DNA of 64,000 nucleotides from Nitrososphaerota archaeon (GCA_041641305.1 JBEPYN010000001.1:288001-352000), one strand, 5' to 3'. Positions 36,731 through 44,497 are shown, counted from the first letter of the stretch. Notes: a model not told the origin generated them from the sequence alone. Translations and numbers: made by a program.

Positions 36731-37312
36731 TTGCTGGTCGAGATGCGGGCTTATCTACGGTTAGCCGCCGCCGCGGCACTGTCATTCGCCGTAGCCTTCA
36801 TCCTAACCTATTTTGAAAACAGTTATCTTAACCCTCTTCAGCCAGCTTTGCTATCTATTTTGTTGATAGCCTCGGCAGCTGGTTTCGTGGCGAGGGCCTC
36901 ATCTCTCTCGGCTCTGGCGGCGGCTGTCGGTGGTTTGGGCGCGTTTGCTGTGTCCCAGTTTCTCGGCTTCTCTCTCTGGAGCCCCTCACAGCTTGAGTCG
37001 GACTTGCTCGTGTCGCGGCTGCTTCTTATAGGCGGTGCAGTTGTTCTCGCCGGGTTGATGGGGTTCGTCACAGGTAATGTTTTCGCACCGAAGCCAGCTG
37101 AGAGACCTGTTCAACCCACGCCAACCCCGTTACAAGTGGAGCAAAATCCCGCACCATTACAGCAGACGCAAGAAACTGTCCAGCAGGTTATGAAAATCTG
37201 TAAGTTTTGCTCGAGTGTGATACCGGGGGAGTCACGGTTCTGCCCCATGTGCGGGGCCAAGCTTATCGAGACCGGTGAAGAATCGGGTGAAAATGTCGAG
37301 GCAGGGGCTTGA
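36731..37312 (+). CDS. Membrane protein with C-terminal zinc ribbon
   Basis: Four TM helices, then CKFC...FCPMCGAKL. Confidence 0.7.
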   Translation: MLVEMRAYLRLAAAAALSFAVAFILTYFENSYLNPLQPALLSILLIASAAGFVARASSLSALAAAVGGLGAFAVSQFLGFSLWSPSQLESDLLVSRLLLIGGAVVLAGLMGFVTGNVFAPKPAERPVQPTPTPLQVEQNPAPLQQTQETVQQVMKICKFCSSVIPGESRFCPMCGAKLIETGEESGENVEAGA

Positions 37313-40142
37313 GGTTCTCAACAGCGTGGTAAAGGTTTTACGGGACGCTGTGTTGGAGAGGTTTAGCGACCTCACTCCTCCCCAGATGCAGGCGATTCCA
37401 CATATTTTGAACCGTGAGAACATTCTCTTGATGGCTCCGACAGGCACCGGGAAAACGGAGGCCGCCCTCATCCCCCTAATCAATAACCTGCTGCTGTCCT
37501 CTTCTTTCGAGGGTGTGAAAATCCTCTACATAACACCTCTAAGGGCCCTCAACCGTGACCTGCTCGACAGAATAGATTGGTGGGCGAGCCGCTTCGATAT
37601 GACCGTTGGCGTTAGACACGGCGACACAGGGCAGCGGGAGAGAAGAGCCCAGACCCTCTCACCACCCACCATCCTCATAACTACACCCGAGACACTACAG
37701 ATACTCTTGACAGCCCGTACACTGAGGCAGCATCTGCAACGGGTTGAGGCTGTTGTCGTAGACGAGGTGCATGAACTCGCAGGAGACAAACGAGGCAGCC
37801 AACTCTCCCTCGCCTTGGAGAGGCTTGTGGAGATAACTGGGAGAGATTTTCAGCGTATAGGGTTGTCGGCCACCGTTGGCACACCTGAAAAAATCGCACA
37901 GTTCCTCGTAGGACATGGGAGAAGCTGCGCCATAGTGCGAGTTCCCCTGTCCAAGTCTCTCCAGCTCTCGGTTGAGTATCCCGACCCTGACGAAAACGAT
38001 TACGAGCTTGCTGAGAATCTCTCGATTCATCCCGATGTGGCTGCGAGGCTCAGCCTAATCAGAAGACTCGTCGACCAACACGAGTCCACACTCGTCTTCA
38101 CAAACACAAGGCCGCTATCAGAGATTTTGACCAACAGGTTCAGGGCATGGGACGAGGCCGCACCCATAGGAATACATCACGGGAGCCTCGCCAAATCAAC
38201 CCGCATAGGCGCGGAACAAGCCTTGAAGACTGGTGGCCTCTCGGGAGTCGTCTGCACATCCTCCCTCGAGATGGGTATCGACGTGGGCCGCATAGAGCTC
38301 TGTATACAGTACAATTCCCCACGGGAGGTGACGCGGCTCGTCCAACGTGTGGGCAGAAGCGGCCACACCGTCTCAGGCACGGCAAAAGGGGTTATAATCG
38401 TCACGGACTCGGACGATGCCTTGGAGAGCCTCGCAATCACAAGAAGAGCTTACAGCGACTTGATAGAGGATGTCCTTGTTTTTGAGAATAGTTATGACGT
38501 GGCGGCGCATCAGCTTGCGGGGCTGCTTATTGAACGGAAACGTGTCAAGCTGGAGGATGTTCTCAAGATTTTCCAACGCTCCTACTGCTACAGAAACTTC
38601 ACCATGGAACAGCTCGTGAAAACTGCTCAGCATCTCGAGAAGCTTGGAGCAGCCGTCCTCACATCGGACAACTTTCTCGAAACACCTCCGAAAACAAACA
38701 TCCTCTACGAATACTACTTCAACAACCTCACCATGATACCCGAGGAGAAACAATATCTGGTGGTTAACGAGTCAACAGGCGAAGCCGTAGGCATACTTGA
38801 TGAAGAGTTTGTAGCGGAATATGGTGAACCCGGGACACGCTTCATTTTGATGGGGAAGGCGTGGGAAATCATTCAGACAGGCGGTGAACGGATTTACGTG
38901 GCTCCACTTGACAGCCTCGAGGGGGCCGTGCCCTCATGGGTTGGTGAGGAGATCCCTGTCCCATATGAGGTGGCTCAAGAGGTTGGAGCAATCAGGAGAA
39001 CATACGCGGAAGCATTGACGAGGGGTGAGGAAGAAAAGGTTCTCGAGATGCTTGCCCAACAATACCGCACCACCACAACGCTGTTGAAGAAGTCTCTGCG
39101 TGAGGTAAAGATGCATCATGAACAGGGGTTACCTGTTCCCTCCGACAGATTGGTTATGCTCGAGGAGACACCCGATTACGTCGTGTTGCATGTCTGCGGC
39201 GGCCTCAAGGTCAACAGAACCCTCGCCCGCACAATCGCCTACCAAGTCTCAACGGAGCTGGGCGCAGCTGTCACCGTCCAGCAAGACGCTTACAGAATCG
39301 TCTACAAATCACGTGAAATAACCGCCGAAGCTGTGCTCAACGCGGTGAAAACCCTTGCCGAGGAGCAGAGCTGGAGGCAAAGCTTCAGCAAAGCCGTCGA
39401 GTCTTCGAGCCTGTTTAGACGGAGACTCGTGCATGTCGCCCGCAAGATGGGGATGATTGCTAAGGATGCGAGCCTCCTAGACATCGATACGGCCAAGCTT
39501 GCGGAGGTTTTGAAGGACACGGTCACATACATGGAGGCGCTTCAGCACTGTTTCTTAGCAGATTACGAGCCTGAAAAAGCCTACAACCTGTTGAGAGGCA
39601 TGGTCTCCGGAGAGCTGGAGCTGAGGGTTGTTAGGCTTCTCGAGCCCTCTCCGCTGACCAGTTTAACCGTTAGAAGATATGCCAGCGACATTGACGTGAT
39701 TGCGTCGGAGCGGTTGCATAGGCTTGTTGTCAACGCTGTCCGTGGGAGGCTTAACAACGAGCCTGTCACACTCGTTTGCACCGTGTGCTGGAACTGGGTT
39801 GGGCGGAGTTTGGTTAGGGAGCTCGAGCAGTGGCCTAAATGCCAGTCCTGCGGCTCAAATCGCCTTGGAGTGTTGAGAGAGGAGCTTGAGGCTGTGATGA
39901 ACCTTGTCTCGAGGAAGGGTAAGCCTGTAAACAGGGTTGAGAGACAGATGCGGCGGAGGGCCCTTGAGACATCGAAGCTGGTCGAAAAATATGGGAAAGC
40001 AGCTGTCTTCACACTCGCAAGCAAATATGTCGACGTTGAGGCAGCCGCAGCTATTCTTGAAAAAGAGAGCTCTGTCGGTGTCAGACTTGTGGAGCTGATT
40101 GTTGATGCTGAGAAACAGCGTATTCAGAGTATGTTTAGGTGA
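37293..40142 (+). CDS. lhr: Lhr-family SF2 helicase
   Basis: APTGTGKT, YITPLRALNRD, DEVH, GLSAT, QRVGRSGH, PSWVGE, C-terminal CxxC...CxxC. Confidence 0.92.
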   Translation: MSRQGLEVLNSVVKVLRDAVLERFSDLTPPQMQAIPHILNRENILLMAPTGTGKTEAALIPLINNLLLSSSFEGVKILYITPLRALNRDLLDRIDWWASRFDMTVGVRHGDTGQRERRAQTLSPPTILITTPETLQILLTARTLRQHLQRVEAVVVDEVHELAGDKRGSQLSLALERLVEITGRDFQRIGLSATVGTPEKIAQFLVGHGRSCAIVRVPLSKSLQLSVEYPDPDENDYELAENLSIHPDVAARLSLIRRLVDQHESTLVFTNTRPLSEILTNRFRAWDEAAPIGIHHGSLAKSTRIGAEQALKTGGLSGVVCTSSLEMGIDVGRIELCIQYNSPREVTRLVQRVGRSGHTVSGTAKGVIIVTDSDDALESLAITRRAYSDLIEDVLVFENSYDVAAHQLAGLLIERKRVKLEDVLKIFQRSYCYRNFTMEQLVKTAQHLEKLGAAVLTSDNFLETPPKTNILYEYYFNNLTMIPEEKQYLVVNESTGEAVGILDEEFVAEYGEPGTRFILMGKAWEIIQTGGERIYVAPLDSLEGAVPSWVGEEIPVPYEVAQEVGAIRRTYAEALTRGEEEKVLEMLAQQYRTTTTLLKKSLREVKMHHEQGLPVPSDRLVMLEETPDYVVLHVCGGLKVNRTLARTIAYQVSTELGAAVTVQQDAYRIVYKSREITAEAVLNAVKTLAEEQSWRQSFSKAVESSSLFRRRLVHVARKMGMIAKDASLLDIDTAKLAEVLKDTVTYMEALQHCFLADYEPEKAYNLLRGMVSGELELRVVRLLEPSPLTSLTVRRYASDIDVIASERLHRLVVNAVRGRLNNEPVTLVCTVCWNWVGRSLVRELEQWPKCQSCGSNRLGVLREELEAVMNLVSRKGKPVNRVERQMRRRALETSKLVEKYGKAAVFTLASKYVDVEAAAAILEKESSVGVRLVELIVDAEKQRIQSMFR

Positions 40143-40728
40143 TTTGCTGGTCTCCTTGTGTCTGGAGGTCTGTCAACGCCTTGAGCAACTGTTTTTGGTC
40201 AACCTCGGCAACGGCCCTCCAACCCACCGAGAGTAAACCATCTCCCGCGTCCACGAGATAACCTCTCCGCACAAACTTTTCCAGAGCCGATTCAATTCTC
40301 CACTTCGGCATCTTAGCCTCAAGCATCTCCATCACATCTTTCCGGGGAGCCTTCCCACCTCTTGAGAAAAGCATCGCCAAGGCAGCGGCCAAGACGGCCA
40401 GTTCATCAACACGCCACCCAGCGGCGACGACATCCGAAAGCGTCAAAGGCTCCGCCAGAGTGATGAAGTACCGTGCCCGGTCATAGTCTTCCTCCCCCGG
40501 ATTGTCGACAGCGGTTTCGAACAAAATCTTCACACGCAGCCCCATCGGCTCAAGCCTATGGTTAAGGCTCTCGATGACTTTGAGATAGTTTTTGCCCAAC
40601 CTCCGCCGTAGCTCATAGCCACGTACACCAGGTAGCCTATGGCTTGTGAAGAGCAGCATACCCATGGCTGTTTGTAGGCGTTTTCTAGCGGTGGACTGCT
40701 CAGGCTTCTGTTCAGACAACGAGCTCAT
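40135..40728 (-). CDS. Tandem winged-helix KITE-family protein (ScpB/Nse1/Nse3-like)
   Basis: Two WH-like halves; C-terminal LEKFVRRGYL...VGWRAVAEV; third gene of the SMC operon. Confidence 0.65.
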   Translation of the reverse strand: MSSLSEQKPEQSTARKRLQTAMGMLLFTSHRLPGVRGYELRRRLGKNYLKVIESLNHRLEPMGLRVKILFETAVDNPGEEDYDRARYFITLAEPLTLSDVVAAGWRVDELAVLAAALAMLFSRGGKAPRKDVMEMLEAKMPKWRIESALEKFVRRGYLVDAGDGLLSVGWRAVAEVDQKQLLKALTDLQTQGDQQIT

Positions 40729-41476
40729 CTCCCTTGACCGTGACAACCATCGAGGCTACGCTGCTTCTCTTCACTTTCTCCACGTGAGGTATGAGATGTA
40801 TCTCGCCTGTTAAGGGGTTCTTTTTCAGGTCGGCGTAACCCTCGCTGACCACAAAAGCCGTCAGAAAAGCTCTCTCAACAACCTTAGACGGGCCCTCAGC
40901 GTTGACGAACTTTAGATAATCCACACGTCCCTCGGCATCCCTCGCCGCCAACAATTCCTCCCGAATCCGATTAATATCTTCCTCAAGCATCTCATGTTGT
41001 GAAAAAGTCTGAGGAAGATTATCAAATCCGGGGCTCTCCGTCTCAGGGGTTTCGCCCCTTGTTTTCTCTCTACGTGTGGGTAGGCTTAGGAAATGCTCCA
41101 GCCCCATGTTAAGCATGTACATGGTGAGCTGCTCGGTGTAGAGTATGGGTCTCCAGCTGGATACAAAGGCGGCTGCGAGAGATTTCTTGTCAGAGGAGGC
41201 TATTTTGAGGGCGATTACTTGGCTGTCAAGGAACAGCGAGTTCGTTCTGTCTTTGAGCCATTTGTGCTGAAGAGCAACGACAACAGCTATCCTGTAAAGC
41301 GTCTCAGCGTCGAGGACCAGAACCTCCGTGTTACGAGATTTCTCCAGAATGTTTCGCAGCTTGTTGAGCATAGCTTTGATGTCGAGGTTGTACGGGTCCG
41401 TGCCCGACTTGACCACAGCCTCACACAAGGCAATAACCCTCTCCAGCTCCTCCCTAGCCACCTTGACGCTCGTCAC
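40712..41476 (-). CDS. Kleisin (ScpA/Nse4-like)
   Basis: N-terminal DPYNLDI (cf. ScpA DPWDIDI) with helical bundle; C-terminal WH FLTAFVVSEGYADLKKNPLTGEIHL; GTG start overlaps the SMC stop region. Confidence 0.7.
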   Translation of the reverse strand: MTSVKVAREELERVIALCEAVVKSGTDPYNLDIKAMLNKLRNILEKSRNTEVLVLDAETLYRIAVVVALQHKWLKDRTNSLFLDSQVIALKIASSDKKSLAAAFVSSWRPILYTEQLTMYMLNMGLEHFLSLPTRREKTRGETPETESPGFDNLPQTFSQHEMLEEDINRIREELLAARDAEGRVDYLKFVNAEGPSKVVERAFLTAFVVSEGYADLKKNPLTGEIHLIPHVEKVKRSSVASMVVTVKGDELVV

Positions 41477-43208
41477 CTGAAACCACCTCCGTCTGAGCAG
41501 GGATGAGAACAGCCGACTTCCCTCTAACACTCTGCACTATTATCACGTTCATGTCCTCCGTGAAAGGCACTCTGCCGGGTGTGATGACGATATACTGGGT
41601 GTTTGGGTCGTTTTTAGCCGAGGACGTGAGGATGTGGATTATTCTTTCGCGGTTGAGGGGGTCTAGGTGTACGTCGAACTCGTCAACGGCTCTGAACGGT
41701 GACTTGATGTGTTTCTGGACGGCGAGTAGGAAGGCCATGGTTGCAACGATTCTCTCTCCACCGCTCTGTGTATGTGTGTCGAGAAGTGTGGGCTCTACCC
41801 CGCGGAACCCGACGTATATCTCGATGGAGGCCTTGTCTATGTCATGGAGGTTTCTTAGCTCAATTTTTCCCGCGCCTCCGACAAGGGATAGTATGCGCTG
41901 GTACTCCGGCTCAACCGATGCCACCAGCTCTCTCACAAACTCAGCCCATTTCTGCTTCCTGTACTCCACTTCCGCCATGGTTTTCTTGGCGTTCTCCCCC
42001 AGTTGCTGCGCCTTGAGCTCGGCTTCACGGTACTTTGACTCGGCGATGAGGTACATTTCCTCGGCCTGTGAGTTTGGCGTTCCGAGGGCCGCTATCTGAA
42101 GAGCTACGGACTTTATTTCCTCTGAGATTTCGACAGGTTTGCGGCCGCTGTCTGTCCGCGGCCCCTTTGCCTCGGCTTCGCCGCGTCTGCGCATTATCTC
42201 CTTGTCCAATGCGGTGAGCTCGTACCGGAGCTGCCTAAGCTCGTCCTCCCTTATCTCCCTTCTCTCGAGAAAACGGCCCAGCGACTCCGCCGCCGCCACT
42301 ATACCGTCAACCGTCTCCAATAATACCTTTTCACCCCATCCTTCTCGCAGACCTTTAAGCAGCGACTGGTAATATGTGGAGACTGTGTTACGCGCTTCTT
42401 CAATCCTCGCCTCGAGGCTCTCAGTCTCGCGTCTAATGCTCTCCATCTTCTCCTCAAGCCTCTCCCTCGACTTCTCCGCCTCTCTGACAAGAGACCATAG
42501 ATACTCGAGTTCAAGTAGCTTCTTCTTTTCCTCGAGGCGTCTCAGAATGGTGAGCTTTTCATACTCTTCTCTCCAGAACTCGACAGCCGACCGGGCCTCG
42601 TCGAGAGTTTTACGCAGCACAGCCTCTTCAGCTAAAAGCGCCGAGAGCTTCGCCTCCGTGTCCCTGATTCTCTCCCTTAATCCCGACGCCCCCACAGCCT
42701 CCTCAATCAACGCGAGCTTTTCCCTGCTGTCTCTGCTCACAAACTGCTCAATCATGTTCTGATGCATGATGATGAGGACGTTGTCCGGGTTTATCCCAAT
42801 CTTCGAAAGAAGGTTGCCGACCTCAGCCTTTGTCTTGAAACGGTTGTTGACATAGTGCCAGTATTCGCCGGATTTTTTGAGAAACCGTGTTATCGTAACG
42901 GTGTCGGAGTTTATTGATGGAATGGGTCGGACGCCGTCAATGGGCTTGTTGTCGAAGACGACGGCCACCCTCGCCGACTCGGTTCCCCTGCGAATGAGGT
43001 CAGCCAGTTTCTGTCCCCTTTCGGTGTATGTCTGGCCGAGCGCCACAGAAATAGCCAGCAGTATAGAGGACTTGCCCGCGCCGTTCGGGCCCACGATCAC
43101 GTTAAGACCCCTGCGTAGAGGTATCCGGCTATATTCATGCGACATAAAATTCTCCAGAATAACCTCTCTGATGAAAGGCTTAGGCCTAGTCTCCGCAGCA
43201 GTCGACAC
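41454..43208 (-). CDS. Short SMC-family ATPase with Smc5/6-type head motifs
   Basis: LENFMSH, Walker A GPNGAGKSS, Q-loop NPDN...HQ, signature QSGGER, Walker B PFRAVDEFDVHLD, QYIVITP; coiled coil between head halves. Confidence 0.88.
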   Translation of the reverse strand: MSTAAETRPKPFIREVILENFMSHEYSRIPLRRGLNVIVGPNGAGKSSILLAISVALGQTYTERGQKLADLIRRGTESARVAVVFDNKPIDGVRPIPSINSDTVTITRFLKKSGEYWHYVNNRFKTKAEVGNLLSKIGINPDNVLIIMHQNMIEQFVSRDSREKLALIEEAVGASGLRERIRDTEAKLSALLAEEAVLRKTLDEARSAVEFWREEYEKLTILRRLEEKKKLLELEYLWSLVREAEKSRERLEEKMESIRRETESLEARIEEARNTVSTYYQSLLKGLREGWGEKVLLETVDGIVAAAESLGRFLERREIREDELRQLRYELTALDKEIMRRRGEAEAKGPRTDSGRKPVEISEEIKSVALQIAALGTPNSQAEEMYLIAESKYREAELKAQQLGENAKKTMAEVEYRKQKWAEFVRELVASVEPEYQRILSLVGGAGKIELRNLHDIDKASIEIYVGFRGVEPTLLDTHTQSGGERIVATMAFLLAVQKHIKSPFRAVDEFDVHLDPLNRERIIHILTSSAKNDPNTQYIVITPGRVPFTEDMNVIIVQSVRGKSAVLIPAQTEVVSGDERQGG

Positions 43209-43354
43209 CTTCCTTCCCGCGGGGCCAGCGTCCCGCTATAATATAAATTCCCTCAAACTTCAACCGGCTTCAAATATGCCCGAGGACATAGCGGTGTATA
43301 TTATCCGCTATTACGTGAAGCCGTGGCTGCGATAAGATATAAAGAGTTGACGCC

Positions 43355-44497
43355 TTGTCCGCTGCTTTGGAGATGTCTCAGGAGCTGGAGAGGATAGCTG
43401 CGTCGAGGGCCCGTGAAGCTGTTCAGTATGATAGGAGCGGGCAGCGTAACAAGGCGATAAAATCATACCGGGAGGCGATAGACGTTTTGTGGAAGCTTTA
43501 CCGTCTCAGCCCCGATGGAACAGTCAAACGCATCTACGCCGAGAAAATTAAGGAGTATCAGGCTCGGATTGAGGAGCTTCAGAACGGCGGTGAAGGGCCT
43601 TCTGTTAGGGTGGAGACTTTTGCCGAGCAGTCGGCGCAGCCGCGGCAGCAGCTTCAGAGCGAGAAGCCAAACGTGAGCTGGGACGACATCGTCAACATCG
43701 AGGAGGCTAAGAAAGCTATACGTGAGAGCATAGTTTTCCCCACGAGGAGGCCGGATCTTTTCCCTCTTGGCTGGCCCCGTGGAATACTGTTATTCGGCCC
43801 ACCAGGATGCGGCAAAACGCTGCTGGCTGCGGCCGTGGCGGCGGAGCTTGACGCAAGCTTCTACGTTCTCGACGCCGCATCTATTATGTCGAAGTGGCTG
43901 GGCGAGTCTGAGCGGAACGTCTCTAAGATTTTCAACCAGTGTAGGCAGGAGGCCCGTAGCGGAAAACCATGCATAATATTTATCGATGAAATCGACTCGC
44001 TGACCGCGGAGAGGTTTATGGAGGTGGGTGGTGAGGCGCGTGTGAGAAACCAGTTGATTAAGGAGATGGACGGTATCCTCGATAAGGGACGGCGGGACTT
44101 TCTCTACGTGTTGGCGGCCACAAACAAGCCGTGGCACCTCGACGAACCATTCATAAGAAGGTTTCAAAAACGGATTTTCGTACCGCTGCCCGACATAGAA
44201 GCTCGAATAATGCTCTTCGAGAAATACACCAAGGGTCTACGTCTCGACACAGGTGTGGAGCTTTCTCAGCTTGCTAAAATAACAGACGGCTACTCCGCCG
44301 CAGACATTCACGACATCTGTATGGAGGCTCAGTTGAAAGTTGTCAGCGAATTCTTCGCATCAAACACGGGTGAAAAAGGGGAGCCTAGGCCTATAACCAT
44401 GGATGACTTCATGGAGATAATCAAGAAAAGGAAGCAGTCGGTTGTGCTCGAGAATCTGAAGAAGCTGCTTGACTGGAACTCTAAGCACGGGACTTAG
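43355..44497 (+). CDS. cdvC: Vps4-like AAA ATPase (MIT + AAA)
   Basis: N-terminal MIT helices; RPDLFPLGWPRGILLFGPPGCGKT; SKWLGESE; ATNKPW.LDEPFIRRF. Confidence 0.92.
   Translation: MSAALEMSQELERIAASRAREAVQYDRSGQRNKAIKSYREAIDVLWKLYRLSPDGTVKRIYAEKIKEYQARIEELQNGGEGPSVRVETFAEQSAQPRQQLQSEKPNVSWDDIVNIEEAKKAIRESIVFPTRRPDLFPLGWPRGILLFGPPGCGKTLLAAAVAAELDASFYVLDAASIMSKWLGESERNVSKIFNQCRQEARSGKPCIIFIDEIDSLTAERFMEVGGEARVRNQLIKEMDGILDKGRRDFLYVLAATNKPWHLDEPFIRRFQKRIFVPLPDIEARIMLFEKYTKGLRLDTGVELSQLAKITDGYSAADIHDICMEAQLKVVSEFFASNTGEKGEPRPITMDDFMEIIKKRKQSVVLENLKKLLDWNSKHGT

What the first reader, a model, noticed from the sequence alone, without database searches (positions are those of the whole stretch)
40135..43208. 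Complete archaeal Smc5/6-like operon: SMC ATPase + kleisin + KITE
Seen: three overlapping co-oriented genes. The ATPase has LENFMSH, QSGGER, PFRAVDEFDVHLD and QYIVITP; gene 2 has ScpA-like N- and C-terminal kleisin motifs; gene 3 is a tandem winged helix. Established: ENFM, PFR..DE and an ITP H-loop (Pro instead of His) are hallmarks of eukaryotic Smc5/Smc6 rather than condensin-type Smc or Rad50, and Smc5/6 works with kleisin Nse4 and KITEs Nse1/3. Archaeal SMC-related families (e.g. coalescin/ClsN) are known, so the ATPase may not be new, but I know of no functional characterisation of such a three-part complex. Inference: a minimal prokaryotic proto-Smc5/6 for chromosome organisation, repair or restriction of extrachromosomal DNA.
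Basis: partly seen in the sequence, partly recalled or inferred. Interest (0 to 1): 0.88.

Follow-up and report, generated by a model that had tools for sequence, protein, structure and literature searches.

The report
Hinge-less archaeal SMC5/6-like operon
This is a real three-gene operon in a hot-spring archaeon (Caldarchaeum) encoding a miniature relative of the eukaryotic SMC5/6 genome-maintenance complex; the kind is already published from sequence analysis, so only details such as its missing hinge and a nearby repair helicase may be new.

Summary
Three overlapping minus-strand genes at 40135-43208 encode a 584-aa SMC-family ATPase, a 254-aa kleisin and a ~194-aa tandem winged-helix kite, and all four quoted motifs are present.

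- The ATPase's best solved-structure matches are Smc5 and Smc6. Beyond its own archaeal family, its nearest relatives among 1.84 billion representatives are eukaryotic SMC6/SMC5.
- The kleisin matches Nse4 by profile and fold. The kite matches Nse3/Nse1/MAGE by fold.
- The gene order SMC-kleisin-kite holds in 19 of 20 distant Thermoproteota loci.
- The kite is single-copy and all-or-none by family in 150 of 300 genomes, which looks like a core gene, not a defence gene.
- The genome also carries a separate canonical SMC/ScpB operon.

It is not new. Yoshinaga & Inagaki (2021) defined "SMC5/6-related aSMC". A van Hooff et al. preprint (2024-25) describes these archaeal operons and lists Caldarchaeum, though without its kleisin.

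Three details may be unreported:
- The arms are about one third of normal length, with no hinge or zinc hook.
- A small helical tip is predicted to homodimerise.
- An Lhr helicase sits convergently next to the operon here and in 9 of 20 distant loci.

My head tree favours the SMC5/6 grouping, but an AU test does not reject the alternative. This scan has found the same operon before on other Caldarchaeum DNA.

The parts
41454..43208 (-). SMC5/6-related SMC-family ATPase, 584 aa (P0001). Motifs: Walker A GPNGAGKS (residues 40-47), Q-loop MHQNMIE, signature QSGGER (481-486), Walker B/D-loop PFRAVDEFDVHLD (504-516), H-loop position ITP (542-544). The N-arm helix is about residues 177-285 and a Gly-rich tip spans 286-311. 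The C-arm spans 312-433 with breaks at 343-358 and 376-378. There is no hinge domain and no Cys.
40712..41476 (-). Nse4-like kleisin, 254 aa as called (P0124). The open frame extends to 41530. It has an N-terminal helical domain, a disordered linker (residues ~135-159) and a C-terminal winged helix.
   Evidence: Profile vs PDB: Nse4 E 7.5e-4, EID3 0.019, ScpA 0.78. Pfam Nse4_C is matched by 25 of 43 family members. Foldseek top hits are Nse4 chains 7tve_G and 7qcd_F. Model.
40135..40728 (-). Nse1/Nse3-like kite, tandem winged helix, 194-197 aa (P0168/P0003). The start is at 40719 (TTG, as called) or 40728 (ATG). It has no Cys, hence no RING.
   Evidence: Model pLDDT 84. Foldseek top hits are Nse3/Nse1/MAGE, then JetB, ScpB and MukE. 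Pfam SMC_Nse1 is matched by 20 of 59 and MAGE by 14 of 59 family members. Cys count.
43237..43247 (-). TATA-box-like element TTTATATTATA, 29-39 nt upstream of the ATPase GTG start, followed by a purine-rich GGAAGGAAGG. It is a candidate archaeal promoter for the operon (inference from sequence only).
   Evidence: Sequence read. No transcript start was mapped.
37275..40142 (+). Lhr-type large helicase (DEAD, Helicase_C, WH_Lhr, DEAD_assoc), convergent with the kite gene and overlapping its 3' end by 8 nt. It is a conserved neighbour and a possible functional partner, but not part of the operon.
   Evidence: Pfam. An Lhr homologue lies within the ~10-kb locus in 9 of 20 distant loci, directly abutting the kite gene in 8 of them, whereas the other five window neighbours tested are found in 0 of 20.

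Best explanation
The three genes encode the archaeal 'SMC5/6-related' SMC complex of a Caldarchaeum (Nitrososphaerota/Aigarchaeota). It is a chromosomal, vertically inherited genome-maintenance machine, paralogous to the canonical SMC-kleisin-ScpB complex that the same genome also encodes.

Proposed working (inferred by homology):
- Two copies of the 584-aa ATPase pair through ATP-sandwiched heads and through a small helical tip at the end of ~110-residue antiparallel coiled-coil arms.
- One Nse4-like kleisin bridges the neck of one head and the cap of the other.
- Two copies of the Nse1/3-like kite sit on the kleisin's middle and help clamp DNA on top of the engaged heads.
- ATP binding and hydrolysis then cycle DNA clamping and release.

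I think the most likely cellular role is handling replication-associated damage or recombination intermediates, possibly together with the neighbouring Lhr helicase. In lineages that lack a canonical SMC it may also organise the chromosome generally.

Shown here: gene structure, homologies, folds, conserved synteny and distribution.
Inferred: stoichiometry, DNA clamping and cellular role.
For: ATPase identity:
- SMC_N E 8.5e-37.
- The best solved relatives are Smc5 at 131 bits and Smc6 at 105 bits, with Pyrococcus Smc at 109 bits in between.
- After the archaeal family, the next best of 1.84e9 representatives are named eukaryotic SMC6/SMC5.
- SMC5/6-type motifs are shared: NFM.H, PFR..DEFDV and ITP.
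- In the ML head tree, the archaeal family plus eukaryotic SMC5 and SMC6 form a clade with SH-aLRT 99. This is separate from canonical SMC (96), Rad50 and ASRP-like proteins.

Kleisin:
- The family profile hits only Nse4/EID3 at the top of the PDB list.
- Nse4_C is matched by 25 of 43 members.
- The model's best Foldseek hits are Nse4.

Kite:
- The best Foldseek hits are Nse3/Nse1/MAGE.
- SMC_Nse1 and MAGE are the most frequent Pfam hits among members.

Complex and core status:
- The genes overlap.
- The order SMC-kleisin-kite holds in 19 of 20 distant loci.
- The kite is single-copy in 150 of 300 Thermoproteota genomes and all-or-none by family.
- Neighbours are housekeeping genes.
- A second operon of canonical SMC (1128 aa), a 232-aa ORF and ScpB lies elsewhere in the genome.

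Dimerisation of the tip:
- ESMFold2 was run on residues 160-440 in two copies. The score was 0.62 and the best of 3 controls was 0.00.
- That mark was reached by 20 of 30 proteins solved as pairs of one chain and by 1 of 23 solved as single chains. These counts hold only roughly here because my own alignment was used.
- The runs agree in 100% of contacts and partner pLDDT is at least 83.
- The interface is residues 276-319 and 366-376. This supports binding but does not show it.

Literature:
- SMC5/6-related aSMC in TACK archaea (PMC8665677).
- Archaeal SMC5/6-related operons, with Caldarchaeum listed as having an SMC5/6-related SMC and an Nse1/3-related kite (10.1101/2024.01.07.573240).
Against: - An AU test does not reject the alternative tree in which the archaeal family groups with canonical SMC instead of eukaryotic SMC5/6 (lnL difference 17, p-AU 0.234).
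- My tree lacks eukaryotic SMC1-4, bacterial Smc, MukB/JetC and RecN, and its eukaryotic rows were chosen by similarity to the query.
- Single-sequence Pfam hits of the kleisin and kite are below threshold (E about 0.15). The kite profile finds nothing in the PDB by sequence.
- The tip region is poorly conserved in sequence and length across the family, which sits uneasily with a conserved dimer interface.
- No biochemical or genetic data exist. The proposed repair role rests on homology and on a convergent, not co-transcribed, Lhr neighbour seen in only about half of the loci examined.
- Expression evidence is negligible.
Confidence: 0.8

Rival explanations
1. It is an SMC-based defence system (Wadjet- or Lamassu-like) that senses and restricts extrachromosomal DNA. 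In this reading the ATPase/kleisin/kite trio is the sensor.
For: Human Smc5/6 restricts episomal viral DNA, and Wadjet JetABC has the same SMC/kleisin/kite architecture (review PMC10586767). The ATPase gives generic PADLOC hits to mad3 (113 bits) and LmuB (79 bits). JetB appears among the structural neighbours of the kite.
Against: No nuclease or other effector gene lies in or beside the operon, and the neighbours are housekeeping genes. The kleisin and kite have no PADLOC hits, and JetA/JetB/JetC models are not matched. The distribution is single-copy and all-or-none by family (for example 11/11, 18/18 and 12/12), unlike the patchy spread of defence islands. The PADLOC scores are lower than those to Smc5 or TIGR02169.
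Confidence: 0.06
2. It is a coalescin/ASRP-type protein (ClsN, Sph). These are half-size archaeal SMC-related ATPases that shape chromosome compartments without kleisin partners.
For: The size (~590 aa) and the lack of a hinge are similar. The NCBIfam ASRP model gives a weak hit (64 bits). ASRPs are widespread in Archaea (PMC9389158).
Against: The ASRP score is far below the 300-bit cut-off. A whole-genome ASRP search finds nothing in this genome at E<=1e-30. ASRP-like proteins of the same phylum fall outside the SMC clade in the tree (branch SH-aLRT 99) and have different motifs, ILDEPT and SH. This ATPase always comes with a kleisin and a kite.
Confidence: 0.03
3. It is a Rad50/SbcC-like double-strand-break repair ATPase. 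It would stand in for Rad50, for which I found no match in this genome.
For: Rad50 models hit the N-terminal head (73 and 70 bits). In a whole-genome Rad50 search the best match is this protein itself, and no Rad50 is found at E<=1e-40. The NF..H strand motif is shared with Rad50.
Against: There is no Cys, so no CxxC zinc hook. No Mre11-like neighbour is present. The scores are far below the cut-offs of 700-1000 bits. Four of the five Rad50 rows (with one ASRP-like row) sit on the outgroup side of the tree and the fifth is unresolved at its base, all outside the SMC clade (SH-aLRT 99). The partners are a kleisin and a kite, which Rad50 does not use.
Confidence: 0.02

Closest known systems
Archaeal 'SMC5/6-related' SMC / Nse4-related kleisin / Nse1,3-related kite operons (Yoshinaga & Inagaki 2021, PMC8665677; van Hooff, Raas, Tromer & Eme, bioRxiv 10.1101/2024.01.07.573240)
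   Same: It has the same three components and phylum-level distribution (mostly TACK), with the kleisin next to the kite. It coexists with a condensin/cohesin-related SMC operon. Caldarchaeum subterraneum is listed there with one SMC5/6-related SMC and one Nse1/3-related kite.
   Different: Nothing essential differs; I file it as this kind. That table scores Nse4-related kleisin as 0 for Caldarchaeum (the authors say downsampling hid kleisins), and here the kleisin is identified. I found no mention in the searchable text of either paper of the short arms, the missing hinge or the Lhr neighbour.
Eukaryotic Smc5/6 core (Smc5-Smc6 with Nse4, Nse1, Nse3; e.g. PDB 7tve, 7qcd, 7dg2)
   Same: The head motifs are shared (NFM.H, PFR..DEFDV, TP at the H-loop). 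The kleisin is of Nse4 type and the kites are of Nse1/Nse3/MAGE type.
   Different: There is one SMC gene instead of two, 584 aa against ~1100, arms about one third as long and no hinge domain. There is one kite gene instead of two, the kite has no RING, and no Nse2 or Nse5/6 is encoded in the operon.
Canonical prokaryotic Smc-ScpA-ScpB
   Same: The gene order SMC-kleisin-kite and the general architecture are the same. A homodimeric SMC is expected.
   Different: TIGR02169 scores 194 bits against a 729-bit cut-off. There are no SMC_hinge, ScpA or ScpB Pfam hits. The head motifs differ. The genome has its own canonical SMC/ScpB operon elsewhere.
ASRP family (coalescin ClsN, Sph1/2)
   Same: These are half-size archaeal SMC-superfamily ATPases without a hinge.
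   Different: The motifs differ, the proteins fall in a separate part of the tree, and no kleisin/kite partners are known for ASRPs.
Wadjet JetABC(D) and MukBEF
   Same: They share the SMC + kleisin + kite composition, and JetB and MukE are structural neighbours of the kite.
   Different: There is no JetD-type nuclease, no PADLOC Jet hits, and the distribution is core-like instead of patchy.

Membership tests
Archaeal SMC5/6-related complex | SMC head groups with eukaryotic SMC5/SMC6 and not with canonical archaeal SMC | tested here: met
   ML head tree of 84 rows: the clade of the archaeal family plus eukaryotic SMC5 and SMC6 has SH-aLRT 99, and canonical SMC is a separate clade at 96. The similarity ranking agrees.
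Archaeal SMC5/6-related complex | The alternative placement (with canonical SMC) is statistically rejected | tested here: inconclusive
   AU test p 0.234, lnL difference 17. SMC1-4 and bacterial SMCs are not in the tree.
Archaeal SMC5/6-related complex | Nse4-related kleisin encoded next to the SMC | tested here: met
   (Nse4 top by profile, Pfam and fold). Adjacency holds in 19 of 20 loci.
Archaeal SMC5/6-related complex | Nse1/Nse3-related kite encoded next to the kleisin | tested here: met
   Adjacency holds in 20 of 20 loci.
Archaeal SMC5/6-related complex | Paralogous to, and separate from, a condensin/cohesin-related SMC operon | tested here: met
   Own genome C2:485353-489983 holds a 1128-aa SMC, a 232-aa ORF and ScpB (E 3.4e-35).
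Eukaryotic Smc5/6 holocomplex | Smc5-Smc6 heterodimer from two paralogous genes | tested here: not met
   Only one SMC5/6-like gene is found in the genome.
Eukaryotic Smc5/6 holocomplex | Long arms and a hinge dimerisation domain | tested here: not met
   The protein is 584 aa with no SMC_hinge hit. The mid-region is variable. The arms are ~110 residues. An Asgard relative, P0363, does have SMC_hinge.
Eukaryotic Smc5/6 holocomplex | Nse1 RING domain; Nse2 SUMO ligase; Nse5/6 | tested here: not met
   The kite is ~194 aa, consists of two winged helices only and has 0 Cys. No further gene lies in the operon. A genome-wide search for Nse2/5/6 was not done.
Canonical Smc-ScpAB | Meets TIGR02169/TIGR02168 cut-offs; hinge; ScpA and ScpB families | tested here: not met
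   194 and 164 bits against cut-offs of 729 and 567. There are no hinge, ScpA or ScpB hits.
ASRP (ClsN/Sph) | Meets the NF045487 cut-off (300 bits) | tested here: not met
   64 bits. No genome match at 1e-30.
Rad50/SbcC | CxxC zinc hook at the arm tip; Mre11 partner | tested here: not met
   0 Cys. No Mre11-like neighbour. Rad50 models score 73 bits or less against cut-offs of 700 bits or more.
Wadjet (JetABCD) | JetD Toprim nuclease and Jet-family ATPase/kleisin/kite | tested here: not met
   No Jet models appear among the PADLOC hits, and the kleisin and kite have none. No nuclease neighbour is present.

The most novel reading that the evidence does not exclude
Most archaeal SMC5/6-type complexes may be a distinct minimal architecture. 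The arms are one third of normal length and there is no hinge. The two ATPases would be closed instead by a small helical tip that homodimerises. Such a complex would work as a short DNA clamp at forks or recombination intermediates together with the conserved neighbouring Lhr helicase, and not as a long-range loop extruder. If so, it would be a compact, thermostable model for how Smc5/6 engages DNA and for what the pre-eukaryotic complex could do.
Probability: 0.3. Interest if true: 0.6.

Novelty: already known. Interest (0 to 1): 0.38.

Why it matters
Smc5/6 is the least understood eukaryotic SMC complex, and its origin has been traced to archaea only by sequence analysis. No archaeal member has been studied at the bench in any paper I could find. 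This Caldarchaeum operon is a clean, complete example with three small thermophile proteins. It could be expressed together to test stoichiometry, ATPase activity, DNA clamping and whether a hinge-less SMC can entrap or extrude DNA at all. As a discovery, however, it adds only details to a published catalogue.

Tried and rejected
Sequence and profile searches that gave little:
- Single-sequence Pfam hits of the kleisin (Nse4_C) and kite (SMC_Nse1) were sub-threshold (E 0.15-0.18). They became convincing only across family members.
- The kite profile against PDB sequences returned only noise.
- A Pfam ScpA search of the genome found nothing, although a 232-aa ORF sits between the canonical SMC and ScpB. 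I did not classify that ORF.

Phylogeny:
- The AU test of the alternative topology was inconclusive (p 0.234; the run had to be resumed).
- One row labelled 'euk6' by its NFM.H motif (P0411) comes from small metagenome contigs. It is probably archaeal and sits on a long branch.

Expression:
- One microbial-mat metatranscriptome holds two short contigs identical to 40096-40238 and 41073-41402.
- Three hot-spring raw-read runs gave no reads, at 3-5% sampling.
- This is no test of expression or co-transcription.

Literature:
- One search returned nothing.

Readings rejected:
- The defence, ASRP and Rad50 readings were considered and rejected (see rivals).
- The plus-strand ORF 42877-43335 inside the ATPase gene has no family hit, and I take it for a shadow frame.

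Full report
**What is there.** The window belongs to a 1.66-Mb, 99%-complete genome. The closest protein matches are named Candidatus Caldarchaeum. On the minus strand lie three overlapping ORFs at exactly the stated coordinates: 41454..43208 (584 aa), 40712..41530 (254 aa as called in databases, starting at 41476) and 40135..40746 (194 aa as called). All four quoted motifs are in the first protein. A TATA-like TTTATATTATA lies 29-39 nt upstream of its GTG start. No transcript start was mapped.

**The ATPase.**
- Pfam SMC_N matches across both head halves (E 8.5e-37). There is no hinge hit.
- NCBIfam models for canonical SMC, Rad50, ASRP and arcadin-4 all score far below their cut-offs.
- Against solved structures the order is yeast and human Smc5 (131 bits), Pyrococcus Smc (109), Smc6 (105), Smc3, Smc1, Smc2 and Rad50.
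- A full HMMER scan of 1.84 billion representatives first finds an archaeal family. Of its 54 best clusters, 50 are 541-685 aa and four are 982-1047 aa (Bathyarchaeota). Next come proteins that their sources name eukaryotic SMC6 and SMC5.

**Motifs.** I tabulated motifs per group on a head alignment.

| Group | N-terminal strand | Walker B region | H-loop region |
|---|---|---|---|
| This archaeal family | ILENFMSY/H | SPFRAVDEFDVHMDP | QYIVITPG |
| Eukaryotic SMC6 | L.NFMCH | PFR.LDEFDVFMD | QYIFITPQD |
| Eukaryotic SMC5 | (not distinctive) | PFRVVDEINQGMDP | QYFLLTPKL |
| Canonical SMC, same phylum | GFKSF | FYLFDEVDAHLD | ISLKD |
| Rad50 | NFLSH | ILDEPT | VTHD |

**Head phylogeny.**
- I built an ML tree (IQ-TREE, LG+C20+F+G4 PMSF, quick search) of 84 concatenated head halves.
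- Four of the five Rad50 rows (with one ASRP-like row) form the outgroup side. The fifth Rad50 row and the other ASRP-like groups are unresolved at the base.
- The tree separates a canonical-SMC clade (SH-aLRT 96) from a clade holding the archaeal short and long forms plus eukaryotic SMC5 and SMC6 (SH-aLRT 99).
- An AU test does not reject the best tree in which the archaeal family is held with canonical SMC (p 0.234).
- The tree lacks SMC1-4 and bacterial SMCs, and its eukaryotic rows were chosen by similarity to the query.
- The phylogeny is therefore supportive, not decisive. It matches the published trees, which also report limited resolution.

**The partners.**
- The kleisin family profile (43 sequences) hits only Nse4/EID3 at the top of the PDB list (E 7.5e-4, 0.019), and ScpA only at 0.78.
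- Pfam Nse4_C is the commonest hit among kleisin family members (25 of 43).
- The kleisin model (pLDDT 70) has an N-terminal helical domain, a disordered linker and a C-terminal winged helix. It matches Nse4 chains of Smc5/6 cryo-EM structures best, then Rad21 and ScpA C-domains.
- The kite model (pLDDT 84) is a tandem winged helix. Its best structural neighbours are Nse3, Nse1 and MAGE proteins, followed by JetB, ScpB and MukE.
- SMC_Nse1 and MAGE are the commonest Pfam hits among kite family members (20 and 14 of 59).
- The kite has no cysteine, so it has no RING.

**Conservation and context.**
- The kite profile finds one copy in 150 of 300 Thermoproteota genomes. The pattern is all-or-none by family (11/11, 18/18, 12/12, 14/14, 23/24 against 0/44, 0/20, 0/14).
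- In 19 of 20 of the more distant loci, drawn from about 15 families, the order SMC-kleisin-kite is kept. The SMC open frames there are about 595-670 aa.
- The genome has a second operon of the same layout: a canonical SMC of 1128 aa, a 232-aa ORF and ScpB.
- Some families show only the short SMC and no canonical one at E<=1e-20 (f11 5/5, f12 2/2 genomes searched).
- Neighbours in the window are housekeeping genes: thermosome, acyl-CoA dehydrogenase, a Vps4/CdvC-like ATPase and SufBD.
- PADLOC gives only generic ATPase hits for the SMC and nothing for the kleisin or kite.
- This pattern fits a core chromosomal function, not a defence island.

**Architecture.**
- The middle of the ATPase has an unbroken helix-compatible stretch at 177-285 and a Gly-rich tip at 286-311. 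A return arm runs from 312 to 433, with breaks at 343-358 and 376-378.
- The arms are thus about 110 residues. From my knowledge, canonical SMC arms are around 330-350 residues.
- The tip region varies in length and sequence across the family.
- The protein has no Cys, so there is no zinc hook.
- An Asgard relative (Freyarchaeum, 835 aa) keeps a Pfam SMC_hinge. The Bathyarchaeota long forms show none.
- A controlled dimer prediction of residues 160-440 passed. The score was 0.62 and the best of 3 controls was 0.00. The mark was reached by 20 of 30 proteins solved as pairs of one chain and by 1 of 23 solved as single chains. These counts hold only roughly because my own alignment was used.
- The three runs agree in 100% of contacts and pLDDT is at least 83. 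The symmetric interface covers residues 276-319 and 366-376. This supports a small dimerising tip but does not show it.

**Lhr neighbour.** An Lhr-type helicase (37275..40142) converges on the kite gene. An Lhr homologue lies in 9 of the 20 distant loci, abutting the kite gene in 8 of them. None of five other window neighbours is found there. This is a hint of a functional link to repair, not proof.

**What is known.**
- Yoshinaga & Inagaki (2021) defined 80 'SMC5/6-related aSMC' homologues, mostly in TACK archaea.
- The van Hooff et al. preprint describes archaeal SMC5/6-related SMC, Nse4-related kleisin and Nse1/3-related kite genes in operons. It proposes a whole-complex duplication in the TACK/Asgard ancestor.
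- Their Supplementary Table 3 lists Caldarchaeum subterraneum with one SMC5/6-related SMC, one Nse1/3-related kite and no Nse4-related kleisin. The authors note that downsampling hid kleisins.
- I found no bench study of such a complex. I found no mention of short arms or a missing hinge in the searchable text of these papers.
- Earlier notes of this scan, read after my own analysis, report the same operon in other Caldarchaeum genomes with the same conclusions.

**Verdict.** The kind is already known from sequence analysis, and the operon is ordinary for this phylum. The residual interest lies in the hinge-less short-arm architecture, the predicted dimerising tip, the Lhr neighbour, and the operon's suitability for a first biochemical study of an archaeal Smc5/6 relative.

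Noticed in passing
window 37275-40142 (+): An Lhr-type large helicase converges on the kite gene and overlaps its 3' end by 8 nt. An Lhr homologue lies in 9 of 20 distant loci, abutting the kite gene in 8 of them, while the other window neighbours tested are found in 0 of 20.
   Followed up: partly
window 43355-44497 (+): A Vps4/CdvC-like ATPase (MIT + AAA + Vps4_C) is transcribed divergently from the operon, 146 bp away. It is not found beside the operon in the 20 distant loci.
   Followed up: partly
G000:C2:485353-489983 (outside the window): The genome has a second operon of the same layout: a canonical SMC (1128 aa), an overlapping 232-aa ORF with no ScpA Pfam hit, and ScpB (E 3.4e-35). 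The middle ORF is presumably a divergent kleisin but was not classified.
   Followed up: partly
whole genome G000: No Rad50 was found with two Rad50 models. The best 'Rad50' match is the SMC5/6-like ATPase itself. Rad50 was found in only 6 of the 41 Thermoproteota genomes searched.
   Followed up: partly
genomes G007, G015, G023, G031, G039 (family f11) and G008, G056 (f12): These near-complete genomes show only the short SMC5/6-like ATPase and no canonical SMC at E<=1e-20. There the small complex may be the only SMC-kleisin machine.
   Followed up: no
loci L042-L053 and G000:C2 (canonical SMCs of the phylum): The canonical SMCs of these Thermoproteota have S/T-L-K at the H-loop position instead of the usual histidine (consensus SQfIviSLKD).
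   Followed up: no
G038, G006, G030 (family f10): In some f10 genomes the short SMC lies on another contig or strand than the kleisin-kite pair. It sits about 8-12 kb from the canonical SMC. This is the one exception to the three-gene order among the 20 loci.
   Followed up: no
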